A stretch of DNA of 64,000 bases, from NCBI RefSeq assembly GCF_009914755.1, contig NC_060928.1, one strand, 5' to 3'. A program made the position numbers and the translations under genes. The DNA comes from the human T2T-CHM13v2.0 reference genome, Homo sapiens. A model generated the notes under the pieces. That model had not been told where the DNA came from. It did no database searches and saw only the letters and a list, made by a program, of their open reading frames with translations. This document shows positions 1,125-11,516 of this stretch, one piece after another; position 1 is the first letter of the stretch; every line of letters begins with the position of its first letter.

Positions 1125-2765
1125 TAACAAACCTCTTTAATATCTGAATGATAGAACAAAGCTGGTTTCTTATATCTGCCTCTGTGTGGAACCTGTTGTG
1201 ATAGGTTGTTCTGATTGAAGTATTTGAAGAAATATTTTATTGGCTTTTTTAGAGAATTGTGGATATTTTTCTTTGATGCTGTACCAAACCATGACAAGTT
1301 AGTTTCTCAAGGGTTAGGTGTAGTGTAGAAGCTAAAACCAATCAGTGGCTTTTCCCTACACTGTTACGTGAAAGTCCATTGGTCTGTCTTGTCCTCTGAA
1401 TGGATATCTTGCCCATGCGTGGCTTGTAACATCACATGTTGGTTATTTGTAAAGTATTGGTTTACTAAGGTAGACAGATTTTCCTGATATTAATACTTTT
1501 CATCATTATTTTTAAAAAATCATATTTGTTACAAAAAAATCATATTTGTTAATACCACCACTGATCTCATCAGAAAGTTCTTTAAATGTTGAGTTTTCAA
1601 GCCCACAGTGGCAGGTGAAAGTTTTCCAGAGTTCTAATTTTTGCTCAGAAAAATTATGATTATGAGAAAAGCTCAGATTTTATTGGTCACAAATAGTGCC
1701 AAATTGCCTTGAAGTGACGGACTCATTTTGTTCATTTTGGAAAATATCTGACAAATATCCAAGTCCAAATAACCATAGTTTGGCCCATCAGTCACTTTTT
1801 GAAGTAAAATTGACATTTCACAGGTGAAGGGCCATTCATCTCACAATGCACAGTGAGATTCCTCGAGGCGGACTCTTCCTGGGGCGTGCCGGAGAAATAA
1901 ATGCTCTGTGTATACTTCCCACTTCGTCACGCAGAATATTCAGAAGACTTGTGCTCAGGGGTTGAGATTTATGCAAAATAATTATTTTTATTGCATCAAG
2001 GACATTCTTAAGTGGAACTGGCTTTTTTCCCGCCTCACAGCTCTGAAGTGTGTGGCAGTGAAGAATGCAGCAGCCACTAGCATGCTTTGCTCCTGCTGTC
2101 TTCGTCCTTGCATTGGTGTTTCACTCTTTTCCCCACCATTGTTTTTTTCCCTGTCAGTGTGAATGTCAGCACAGTGAAAAAGGCAGAGGACATTTTGGTA
2201 CAAATTTGAAAATAGTTTTGACTCGTGGGCCTGCTGAAGGGTGTTAGGGTGAAAATCCTATTTTGCTAGCCATTAGTAGTTAACCACAGATTTCTTGAAA
2301 CTTGCTCAACTTTTTAATATCTGTCTGCTGATACATATTTAACATAGGTGTCAACCAGATTTGTTTTTAGTATTTGGAAAATAATGCTTTCCCTTCTAAT
2401 TCTTCATTATAGCTTTAACACTGAAATTTGTCAGAGAACTTAGTTAATTATCAATGATATGTTCAGGTTGGCAACTAGGCTTATAGCATGGCCTTACCCT
2501 CGCTGCGGCTCTAGGCTATGCTGGACCATCTGAATGGGGTCCTCGGACCACACTTTGAGAACCACAGCTCTGTTGGGTTGTCTTTTTCTTATTGACTTGT
2601 GGGATTTCTTTATATACACTCAGTAGCAGCTCTTTATTGGTTGTATGTGTTGCAGATATTGCCTGTTTCTTTTTTGTCTGTTTTTCACTATGTGATGGTG
2701 TCGCTTTATGAACACAGATTCTTTTCTTTTTTTAACCTTGAGATGCTACCAGGGCAGCCACTCAC

Positions 2766-2915
2766 CACAGCCCCTGCTGGGGTGTGAATGTGCACCACGC
2801 ACTTCACGTCCGGGTGTGCAGCATAAATTGCAGAGTGTAAGGTGAAGCCGGCCTGATTCACTCCCAGATTAGTGCTTCCACGATCTACTATATCTCCTTG
2901 TAGATTGATCTTAAC
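2766..2915 (-). pseudogene. Isolated unprocessed copy of one alpha-adducin (ADD1) head-domain exon
   Basis: Minus strand reads tttttttattttcag|GTT AAG ATC AAT...GGG GCT GTG|gtgagt. The 150 nt encode VKINLQGDIVDRGSTNLGVNQAGFTLHSAIYAAHPDVKCVVHIHTPAGAV, matching ADD1 as I recall it at 48/50 aa. I found no other adducin exon in the window. Confidence 0.9.
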
Positions 2916-2959
2916 CTGAAAATAAAAAAATAAAAATTTAAAATACCAAGAGGACTTCA

Positions 2960-3287
2960 TTTTTCTTTTCTGTTTTCGAGACGGTCGGTCTCGCCCAGTA
3001 TGGAGTGCAGTGGTGCAATCCTGATTCTCTGCAGCCTTCACCTCCTGTGTTCAAGCAACCCTTCTGCCTCAGTCTCCTGAGTAGCTGGGACTACAGGTGC
3101 GCACCACCATGCCTGGCTAATTTTTTTATTTTTAATATAGACGGGGTTTTGCCATGTTGCTCAGGCTGGTCTCAAACTCCTGGGCTCAATCAGTCTCCCT
3201 CTGTCGCCCTGGCTGGACCTCAGATGATCTGCCTGCCACGGCCTCCCAAAGTGCTGGGATTACAGGAGTGAGCCACTGCACCCAGCC
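2960..3287 (-). mobile_element. Old or chimeric Alu adjoining the ADD1-like insert
   Basis: Alu reverse complement with a misplaced Alu-end fragment (agtctccctctgtcgccctggctgga) at ~3192-3217. Confidence 0.85.
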
Positions 3288-3654
3288 AAATATGATAATG
3301 AGCCAGGGGTAGTGGGAAGCATATTTAGATCATGGGCGGGTCAGCAATATGCCCATGGGCTTTGCCACCAGAGTCCTGTGTCCTGGTGTGCCTCGGCACA
3401 CTGTTTGCCATAGGCTTTGAGGAGAGTGTTGGTTGGTCTTAATAACATTCTATCTCGGGCCCAGAGGTAGCCCACTGAAGGAGAAATTCAGAGAAGAGAG
3501 GTGGGATGGCTGAGACATTTTTGCATAGACCTGCAAGGGGACAGGCCTGACTAAACAAATCTTGCTCCTTAATAGTCAGGACCAAGCCTGTGTTGAACTT
3601 AGCAATTTGGTTTCAGCTAATCATCGATCTCTCTCTTTAAAATAATGTTGTTAA

Positions 3655-3903
<249 letters not shown>

Positions 3904-4593
3904 TGATCCACCCGCCTCGGCCTTCCAAAGTGCTGGGATTACAGATCTGAGCCACCGTGCCTGGCTGAATTTCACCATTTTAAAAATATTTCACTTTAAA
4001 CCACCTTGAGTTTTTACATTATATGAAGGCTAAAAGACATATTATGTTGCATTTTAACATTTGCATATGTTTAACAAAAATAGTTTTAGTCTGGTGGGAG
4101 ATACGGTGAGGGGATGGCACTTTGGGGTAATTGTTTTTTCTTTAAAGGGCCCTGAACTCAAGCATCCTGTCATAAAGAAGACTACTCGGCAAGTAGTCTT
4201 AAGTTTCTATCTATTTTTCTGTTTTCAAGGCTGTTTTAGACTCCATTTTGATTATGGGCATTAGCAGTTGTCTTTATTCTCATATATCATATTATTAAAA
4301 TGTAAGTTGCATTTTACACTAAGGAACTGGGTTCTCCAATAGTTATTATGCCCATAGATTAATCAAGGCATATAGTCCCAACTTAAGCCATTTAAGAGTT
4401 TGCTGGCGTAGGCCACCGTGCACGGCGGCCTAGGCCGATCACGCCTGTAATCCCGGCACTTTGGGAGGCCGAGGCGGGTGGATCATGAGGTCAGGAGATC
4501 GAGACCATCCTGGCTAACACGGTGAAACCCCGTCTCTACTAAAAATATAAAAAATCAGCTGGGTGTGGTGTTGTGCATCTGTAGTCCCAGCTA

Positions 4594-4740
<147 letters not shown>

Positions 4741-4900
4741 TCACTCCTGTAATCCCAGCATTTTGGGAGGCCGAGGCAGATGGGTCACCTGAGGTCAGGA
4801 GATTGAGACCAGCCTGGCCAACATGATGAAACCCCATCTCTACTAAAAATACAAAAATTAGTTGGGCTTGGTTGCGGGTGCCTGTAATCCCAGCTACTCA

Positions 4901-5059
<159 letters not shown>

Positions 5060-5309: not shown

Positions 5310-11516
<6,207 letters not shown>

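What the first reader, a model, noticed from the sequence alone, without database searches (positions are those of the whole stretch)
2730..2960. Inverted, splice-competent orphan copy of an ADD1 exon inside a FAM193A intron
Seen: a 150-nt, stop-free, phase 0-0 exon on the minus strand with a strong acceptor (ttttcag) and donor (gtgagt), with no sibling adducin exons found in 64 kb. Retained intron flanks argue against an ordinary spliced retrocopy, and I see no TSD. Known: ADD1 lies in the same 4p16.3 band. Inference: a local templated duplication or capture from ADD1 DNA or pre-mRNA. FAM193A pre-mRNA would then carry a near-perfect antisense to an ADD1 exon and its splice sites, and the symmetric exon could be spliced into an antisense transcript. 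It is also a likely source of mis-mapped reads and false ADD1 variants. It may already be annotated as a pseudogene fragment.
Basis: partly seen in the sequence, partly recalled or inferred. Interest (0 to 1): 0.8.

Follow-up and report, generated by a model that had tools for sequence, protein, structure and literature searches.

The report
Orphan inverted ADD1 exon copy
A roughly 245-base piece of the ADD1 gene, holding one complete exon with its splice sites, was copied long ago and pasted backwards into an intron of the nearby FAM193A gene, where it now looks like an inert relic.

Summary
Window 2915..2766 (minus strand) is a 150-nt exon, open in one frame only, with ttttcag/gtgagt splice sites. 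It encodes adducin-1 residues 198-247 (Pfam Aldolase_II, E 3e-11).

The CHM13 genome holds one other copy, at chr4:2892991-2893238 (+), 286 kb downstream in the adducin gene there (ADD1). The 225-nt unique core (44 nt of intron, the exon, 31 nt of intron) differs at 4 bases with no gaps (98.2%). BLAST's 87% comes from unrelated Alus lying upstream at both loci.

No other ADD1 piece was found when 95 kb of the ADD1 region was compared with the whole window. The retained intron flanks rule out a processed retrocopy.

Both junctions lie in A-rich sequence. The insert sits between an old Alu (14% diverged) and an old repeat fragment. A 9-nt direct repeat flanks it but is not beyond chance (5% of shuffles). 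There is no poly(A) signal and no real poly(A) tail.

My best reading is a proximity-dependent templated insertion, in which a broken Alu-tail end was extended on the ADD1 Alu tail. An RNA-templated patch is the main rival. I estimate the age at roughly 10 My, very loosely.

No transcript or other function is annotated there. This is a new member of a known kind, of modest interest.

The parts
2731..2978 (-). Maximal extent of the ADD1-derived segment. The unambiguous part is 2735-2959. The ends at 2960-2978 and 2731-2734 lie in A-rich sequence where the breakpoint cannot be placed exactly.
   Evidence: Megablast window 2976..2731 vs chr4:2892991-2893238, 97.2% over 248; global alignment; only 2 genome places.
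2766..2915 (-). Complete 150-nt coding exon, phase 0-0, corresponding to adducin-1 residues 198-247. It differs from the donor at 3 bases: 2815 (CAC vs CGC, Arg>His), 2796 (GTG vs GTC, silent) and 2767 (GTG vs GCG, Ala>Val).
   Evidence: The paralogue exons on chr2 and chr10 keep Arg at the Arg/His site, so His is derived in the copy.
2916..2959 (-). 44 nt of ADD1 upstream intron with the polypyrimidine tract and AG acceptor. There is one difference from the donor, at 2938 (A vs C, position -23).
2735..2765 (-). 31 nt of ADD1 downstream intron starting with the gtgagt donor, identical to the source. After a 1-nt deletion (C), TAAA at 2734-2731 still matches.
2960..2978 (-). 5' junction zone, CGAAAACAGAAAAGAAAAA. 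This is A-rich sequence that may be the tail of the resident Alu, a copy of the tail of the ADD1 intronic Alu (A17-GAAAAGAAAAAA), or both.
2716..2730 (-). 3' flank, AAAAGAAAAGAATCT. This is local A-rich sequence that aligns with an old interspersed repeat. At most 3-4 A beyond the donor homology could count as an untemplated tail.
2963..2971 (-). Upstream copy of the 9-nt direct repeat AGAAAAGAA. The downstream copy is at 2719-2727.
   Evidence: 1073 of 20000 shuffles reach a 9-nt shared word, so it is not significant.
2979..3287 (-). [quoted passage not shown] It carries an odd ~27-nt internal Alu-3'-end-like insertion.
   Evidence: 14.3% diverged from a majority consensus of 24 window Alus, with 7 CpG kept against 18 in that consensus. 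About 80% identical to the ADD1 intronic Alu.
2567..2731 (-). Old interspersed repeat fragment directly 3' of the insert. It looks like LINE-1 ORF2 by recall; I did not test the name.
   Evidence: 29 other genome matches at 69-92%. Alignments to 11 loci reach up to window 2731.

Best explanation
A ~245-bp stretch of ADD1 genomic sequence was copied without loss of the donor and patched, in inverted orientation, into an intron of FAM193A 286 kb away. It holds the tail of an intronic Alu, 44 nt of intron, one whole exon and ~35 nt of the next intron.

The most likely route (inferred, not shown) is as follows. A DNA break or stalled fork arose in the A-rich tail of the resident old Alu. The 3' end, helped by Alu and A-tail homology, invaded the equivalently oriented Alu tail in the ADD1 intron. 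It was extended for ~240 nt through the exon, then released. It was rejoined to the other end through a 3-4 nt 'AAA' microhomology. This is a single templated insertion of the SDSA/FoSTeS-MMBIR type.

The copy is not a processed retrocopy. It has since evolved neutrally, with two missense changes in the exon, and is most likely inert.

My odds:
- It is an unspliced ADD1-derived copy: about 0.97.
- The template was DNA rather than nascent RNA: about 0.5-0.55.
- It has no function: about 0.9.
For: Shown:
- The only genomic relative is the adducin-1 locus, at 97% over 245-248 nt. The core is 221 of 225 identical with no gaps.
- The donor is intact and multi-exonic.
- Intron flanks are present on both sides.
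- Only one piece is shared between 95 kb of the ADD1 region and the whole window.
- The resident Alu is 14.3% diverged against 1.8% for the insert, so the Alu was there first.
- Both loci have an Alu in the same relative orientation whose A-rich tail sits exactly at the 5' end of the shared segment.
- The 3' junction shares only T-AAA.
- The sense strand has no AATAAA or ATTAAA, and at most 3-4 untemplated A.

Inferred:
- A donor only 286 kb away in cis is very improbable for trans retroposition of a cytoplasmic RNA, by my estimate about 2 in 10,000 for a random genomic source. It is expected for a proximity-dependent template switch.
- The A-rich tract lies at the 5' end of the copied segment. 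That is where homology-primed DNA synthesis would start. It is the wrong end for poly(A)-primed reverse transcription.

From the literature: templated insertions of 7 bp to 13 kb (including 376 and 815 bp) with microhomology are described as FoSTeS/MMBIR signatures (PMC5120786, passages).
Against: - No empty site or outgroup was available, so the pre-insertion sequence and exact breakpoints are unknown.
- The insert is flanked by a 9-nt direct repeat and followed by an A-run in the sense orientation. The target is A-rich. All three also fit an L1 ORF2p-type insertion.
- The donor is a transcribed gene, and the TSIP authors report that experimental templated patches derive mostly from RNA (PMC5110952).
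- No accompanying copy-number change or second template switch, the more specific MMBIR marks, is visible.
- The Alu-to-Alu homology is only ~80%.
- The claim that it is inert rests on absence of annotation, not on expression data.
Confidence: 0.5

Rival explanations
1. RNA-templated patch. A fragment of unspliced, nascent ADD1 pre-mRNA, which stays near its gene, served as template for a reverse transcriptase at a double-strand break in the FAM193A Alu tail. This would be a class 2 templated sequence insertion (endonuclease-independent, NHEJ-like joining).
For: - The donor is a transcribed gene, and the copy contains exon plus intron, as pre-mRNA does.
- There is no poly(A) signal and no demonstrable TSD, but there is junction microhomology and a 1-nt microdeletion at the 3' junction. 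These are the class 2 features listed in PMC5110952.
- That paper gives the size of experimental insertions as 73-414 bp, median 191.
- Nascent RNA would also account for the proximity.
Against: - Reported TSI donors map all over the genome without regional preference (PMC5110952).
- Nothing in the sequence marks an RNA intermediate.
- The matched Alu tails at the 5' end are explained more simply by DNA strand invasion.
Confidence: 0.25
2. L1 ORF2p target-primed reverse transcription of an ADD1 pre-mRNA fragment (class 1 TSIP-like event). It would have nicked the T-rich complement of the Alu tail, produced a 9-nt TSD (AGAAAAGAA), and fixed the 5' end by microhomology with the target overhang.
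For: - The 9-nt direct repeat flanks the insert.
- An A-run follows the sense 3' end.
- The target is A-rich, like a typical L1 endonuclease context.
Against: - The repeat is not beyond chance in this composition: 1073 of 20000 shuffles. It also exists in the donor tail.
- There is no cryptic AATAAA or ATTAAA anywhere in the insert, and at most 3-4 untemplated A against the 10-40 stated for class 1.
- With the 9-nt repeat as TSD, the implied nick site reads TTCT/G, not TTTT/A (read).
- The donor is 286 kb away in cis.
- An unspliced nuclear fragment is an unlikely ORF2p template.
Confidence: 0.15
3. Eroded remnant of a larger segmental duplication between the ADD1 and FAM193A regions.
For: Both loci lie in the same 4p16.3 interval (gene order in PMC4804413). 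Both are Alu-rich.
Against: - Homology stops abruptly at both ends.
- Sequence just outside is an old Alu (80% to the ADD1 Alu), a unique stretch (3291-3667 has only a self match) and an old repeat.
- No other collinear match of >=92% exists between 95 kb of the ADD1 region and the 64-kb window.
Confidence: 0.03
4. The copy is functional. Either it is an exon of an unannotated minus-strand transcript, or, as part of FAM193A pre-mRNA, it acts as a trans antisense that masks the ADD1 exon and its splice sites or feeds dsRNA pathways.
For: - Both splice sites and the open frame are intact.
- The plus strand is complementary to ADD1 pre-mRNA at 221 of 225 core positions.
Against: - No minus-strand gene, exon or regulatory element is annotated at 2731-2978 (hub table).
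- Two of the three exon changes are missense at residues kept in the donor. For the Arg/His site the paralogues keep Arg too. This is as expected without constraint.
- An open 50-codon frame after ~2% divergence is expected by chance.
Confidence: 0.05

Closest known systems
Templated sequence insertions / TSIPs (Onozawa and Aplan; PMC5110952, whole text parts 1-2 read)
   Same: A short segment is copied from elsewhere in the genome with the donor left intact. Its ~245 bp fall within the 73-414 bp reported for experimental events. It can include intronic sequence, and it is joined with microhomology and a microdeletion.
   Different: It is probably fixed and old (about 2% diverged) rather than a known polymorphism. 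The donor is only 286 kb away in cis, whereas reported donors are scattered. It fails the class 1 marks for poly(A) signal and tail, and the TSD is unproven.
FoSTeS/MMBIR or SDSA templated insertions at breakpoint junctions, and Alu/Alu-mediated rearrangements (PMC5120786, passages)
   Same: A nearby template is used in inverted orientation, with microhomology at the junctions. Alu elements of matching orientation sit at the point where copying starts.
   Different: It is a simple insertion. There is no accompanying deletion, duplication or triplication and no visible iterative switching. The junction lies in the Alu tails rather than forming a chimeric Alu body.
Processed pseudogenes (retrocopies)
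   Same: It is a copy of coding sequence of a parent gene at an ectopic site, evolving without constraint.
   Different: It holds one exon only, intron sequence is retained on both sides, there is no poly(A) signal or tail, and the donor is local.
Exon shuffling / exon duplication raw material
   Same: It is a symmetric (0-0) exon with intact splice sites delivered into the intron of another gene.
   Different: It lies antisense to the host gene, so FAM193A cannot splice it in. There is no evidence of use.

Membership tests
Class 1 TSIP (L1 ORF2p-mediated) | Target-site duplication of at least 5 bp | tested here: inconclusive
   The 9-nt AGAAAAGAA repeat flanks the insert. However, 1073 of 20000 shuffles of the A-rich flanks reach 9 nt, and the same motif is in the donor's Alu tail.
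Class 1 TSIP (L1 ORF2p-mediated) | Untemplated poly(A) of 10-40 A, placed 10-30 nt after a cryptic AATAAA | tested here: not met
   There is no AATAAA, ATTAAA, AGTAAA or TATAAA in the sense strand 2978..2731, and at most 3-4 A beyond the donor homology. Tails can shrink with age.
Class 1 TSIP (L1 ORF2p-mediated) | Insertion at 5'-TTTT/A-3' | tested here: inconclusive
   The target is T-rich on the opposite strand. With the 9-nt repeat as TSD, the nick would read TTCT/G (read). Other registers are possible.
Class 2 TSIP (templated patch at a DSB) | No TSD, poly(A) signal or tail; microhomology, microdeletion or untemplated bases at the junctions; donor intact | tested here: met
   The donor is intact. 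A 1-nt deletion and T-AAA microhomology are at the 3' junction, and 12-18 nt of A-rich homology at the 5' junction. The TSD caveat above applies.
Class 2 TSIP (templated patch at a DSB) | RNA intermediate | not testable with these tools
   Sequence alone cannot tell an RNA template from a DNA template here.
FoSTeS/MMBIR templated insertion | Template nearby, either orientation, microhomology at the junctions | tested here: met
   286 kb away in cis, inverted. Junction homologies as above.
FoSTeS/MMBIR templated insertion | Iterative template switches and/or associated copy-number change | tested here: not met
   There is a single collinear piece. The flanks are an old Alu, unique sequence and an old repeat. 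A second short switch into the A-rich tail cannot be excluded.
Processed pseudogene | Introns removed, several exons joined | tested here: not met
   There is one exon, with 44 nt and 31-35 nt of its own introns on either side.
Segmental duplication (at least 1 kb, at least 90%; definition recalled) | Length of at least 1 kb | tested here: not met
   The match is 245-248 bp.
Adducin / class II aldolase coding exon | Significant match to the PF00596 profile and to adducin-1 | tested here: met
   44 bits against a cut-off of 22.2. PDB 8iah 'Adducin 1' at E 5e-27. It is a fragment of 50 codons, not a gene.

The most novel reading that the evidence does not exclude
The segment records DNA-level exon capture without retrotransposition. 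An Alu tail in one gene primed copying from the like-oriented Alu tail in a neighbouring gene, and this delivered a complete symmetric exon with working splice sites into a foreign intron. That would make paired Alus a general vehicle for local exon shuffling. In addition, the FAM193A pre-mRNA, which carries a 98% complementary antisense of an ADD1 exon and both its splice sites, could pair with nascent ADD1 pre-mRNA and modulate its splicing or editing.
Probability: 0.05. Interest if true: 0.6.

Novelty: new member of a known kind. Interest (0 to 1): 0.3.

Why it matters
It is a clean, datable example of a small templated insertion that moved an intact exon, with splice sites, between neighbouring human genes. 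It shows how exon-shuffling raw material can arise locally without a processed RNA.

In practice it is a 245-bp paralogous sequence of an ADD1 coding exon that RefSeq does not annotate. Exome baits for that exon will capture it. Very short reads or amplicons lying inside the 122-nt identical run could be mis-assigned. The three exon differences, two of them missense, are the paralogous variants to watch.

Otherwise it is most likely a neutral relic.

Tried and rejected
- I tried to recover the pre-insertion sequence from paralogous copies of the flanking old repeat. The copies are only 68-81% alike. They show that the repeat reaches the 3' junction, but they cannot resolve the A-rich target. 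The upstream flank 3291-3660 gave no match to those 11 loci, and 3291-3667 is unique in the genome.
- I looked by eye for the resident Alu's own TSD beyond the insert and found none convincing.
- The chimeric Alu-plus-ADD1 co-retroposition idea is rejected, because the Alu is 14.3% diverged and the insert 1.8%.
- The chr9 Aldolase_II hit is not an adducin retrocopy. tblastn with the exon peptide gave no match at 1e-3.
- Literature: 'ADD1'+'FAM193A' returned 9 papers, by their titles gene-list and unrelated studies (one opened). 'adducin'+'pseudogene'+'4p16.3' returned 1 unrelated paper. A search for unspliced or intron-containing retrocopies returned nothing relevant among the 10 listed. One search failed on a term limit and was not repeated.

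Full report
**Observation**

Reading the minus strand gives ...tttttatttttttattttcag | GTTAAG...GCTGTG | gtgagt.... The first exon base is at window 2915 and the last at 2766, which is 150 nt. Only one of the three frames is open.

Its 50 residues match Pfam PF00596 (class II aldolase and adducin N-terminal domain) at E 3.1e-11, 44 bits against a cut-off of 22.2. They also match the PDB chain named 'Adducin 1' (8iah, residues 198-246) at E 5e-27, ahead of beta-adducin at 5.5e-15.

**Source**

A DNA search of the window's own genome (CHM13, 3.1 Gb) with 2600-3100 found one non-Alu place other than the query, G000:C4:2892901-2893238 on the plus strand. The other 42 listed matches cover only the Alu part of the query. 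The 245-nt piece 2731-2975 has exactly two places in the genome: itself, and chr4:2892992-2893238 at 97% identity, E 2e-111.

That place is 286 kb downstream of the window position. A Pfam scan of the genome finds a second adducin-domain exon block 3.5 kb further on, at 2896654-2897007. It also finds the paralogous exons on chr2 and chr10, but only one match inside the window (12 candidates, 12 scored, 8 reported).

The 4p16.3 gene order RNF4, FAM193A, TNIP2, SH3BP2, ADD1 is printed in PMC4804413 (passages). That the locus is ADD1 rests on this order, on the PDB name and on my recall of its coordinates. These tools hold no gene table for that position.

**Extent and identity**

The 87% reported by BLAST is misleading. 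Both loci happen to have an Alu directly upstream, in the same relative orientation, and the HSP runs on into an Alu-against-Alu stretch of about 80%.

The unique core runs from TGAAGTCC to CAAGGT. It is 44 nt of intron, 150 nt of exon and 31 nt of intron. It is 225 nt in both loci, with 4 mismatches and no gap, or 98.2%. The mismatches are:

| Window position | Copy vs ADD1 | Effect |
|---|---|---|
| 2938 | A vs C | intron, position -23 |
| 2815 | CAC vs CGC | Arg>His |
| 2796 | GTG vs GTC | silent |
| 2767 | GTG vs GCG | Ala>Val |

The chr2 and chr10 paralogue exons keep Arg at the Arg/His site, so that change at least is derived in the copy.

Beyond the core, the copy's AGAAAAGAAAAA (2971-2960) matches the tail of the ADD1 intronic Alu (A17-GAAAAGAAAAAA), apart from one missing A. 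At the other end, TAAA (2734-2731) still matches after a 1-nt deletion. So the segment is 229 to about 248 nt, depending on where in the A-rich runs the joints lie.

I compared 95 kb of chr4:2.840-2.935 Mb with the whole 64-kb window. Only this piece showed 97.2% over 248 nt. The other three hits of >=92% and >=60 nt are a 77-nt stretch and two stretches with 64-65 matches inside the window, which are Alus. The copy is therefore a true orphan. It is unspliced, so it is not a processed retrocopy.

**Setting**

By the hub's table, the site lies in an intron of FAM193A (plus strand), with no annotated exon, minus-strand gene or regulatory element at 2731-2978.

- Immediately 5' of the insert, in insert orientation, is an Alu (about 3287-2979). 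It is 14.3% diverged from a majority consensus of 24 Alus of the window, the second most diverged of the 24. It keeps 7 CpG against 18 in that consensus. It is therefore far older than the 1.8%-diverged insert.
- Immediately 3' is an old interspersed repeat (2731-2567). It has 29 other genome matches at 69-92%, and alignments reach the junction itself. By recall it is LINE-1 ORF2-like; I did not test that name.
- The stretch 3291-3667 is unique.

**Junctions and mechanism**

Both junctions are in A-rich sequence. A 9-nt direct repeat, AGAAAAGAA, lies at 2971-2963 and 2727-2719. However, 1073 of 20000 composition-preserving shuffles of the two 19-nt flanks share a word that long. The motif also occurs in the donor's Alu tail, so it cannot be called a TSD.

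The sense strand has no AATAAA, ATTAAA, AGTAAA or TATAAA, and at most 3-4 A beyond the donor homology.

Measured against the published criteria for L1 ORF2p-mediated class 1 templated insertions (PMC5110952), one of the three features is not met and two are inconclusive. Those features are a TSD of at least 5 bp, 10-40 untemplated A after a cryptic signal, and a TTTT/A target. The class 2 (break-patch) description fits. So does the FoSTeS/MMBIR description of microhomology plus a templated insertion from a nearby locus in either orientation (PMC5120786, passages).

Two inferences tip me toward a DNA-templated, homology-primed event:

- The donor lies 286 kb away in cis. For a randomly sourced RNA this has a chance of order 2 in 10,000 (my estimate).
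- The Alu and its A-tract sit at the 5' end of the copied segment. A strand invading through Alu and tail homology would start copying there. Poly(A)-primed reverse transcription would start at the other end.

A patch templated by nascent ADD1 pre-mRNA remains a serious rival, because it would also be proximity-dependent. Without an empty site this cannot be settled.

**Age**

The core shows 4 differences in 225 nt. Two are CpG transitions. Of the 8 donor CpGs, 5 are kept. Using recalled primate substitution rates, both classes point to roughly 10 million years, with an interval of perhaps 1-50 My. This is a rough estimate, not a measurement. It predicts presence in great apes.

**Function**

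Both splice sites are identical to the donor's, apart from the -23 change, which lies next to a possible branch-point A (my reading, untested). So 'splice-competent' is fair at the sequence level, but nothing annotated transcribes the minus strand here.

The FAM193A pre-mRNA does contain a 98% antisense of the ADD1 exon and its splice sites. Whether the two RNAs ever pair is unknown. Two of the three exon changes are missense, and an open 50-codon frame at 2% divergence is expected by chance. There is no sign of constraint.

On mapping, the longest identical run is 122 nt (2937-2816). Only short reads or amplicons inside it are ambiguous.

**Novelty and verdict**

I found no paper describing this copy. 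The searches were 'ADD1'+'FAM193A' (9 papers, by title gene lists or unrelated; one opened) and 'adducin'+'pseudogene'+'4p16.3' (1 unrelated paper). Supplements were not consulted.

It is an ordinary though tidy member of a known kind: a fixed templated sequence insertion or small interspersed duplication. Its functional suggestions remain untested and are unlikely.

Noticed in passing
window 3190-3225 (minus strand), inside the Alu at 3287-2979: The resident Alu's left arm carries an extra ~27 nt (ccagccagggcgacagagggagactgat) that looks like the 3' end of an Alu, followed by a restart of the left-arm sequence. It may be an old small templated insertion or rearrangement within the Alu.
   Followed up: no
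window 2921-2934 (plus strand): The reverse complement of the copied polypyrimidine tract places two AATAAA hexamers (starting at 2921 and 2929) in the FAM193A sense strand. No annotated transcript ends there.
   Followed up: partly
G000:C9:119293200-119293781 (outside the window; L024): A contiguous match to nearly the whole Aldolase_II profile (positions 3-182, E 9e-38) with two in-frame stops. It looks like a processed pseudogene of a class II aldolase-domain gene. It is not adducin-like, since it gave no tblastn match to the exon peptide.
   Followed up: partly
L009 about 6775-7045 (chr4:2892775-2893045, ADD1 intron): The Alu just upstream of the donor exon is truncated and internally deleted: 177 aligned positions, 14.1% diverged. 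Its long A17-GAAAAGAAAAAA tail ends only 44 nt before the exon's acceptor.
   Followed up: partly
window 4439-5020 and L009 8363-8964: Tandem Alu pairs at both loci give a 605-nt, 79% match. It is not collinear with the exon copy and is Alu-to-Alu similarity only.
   Followed up: partly
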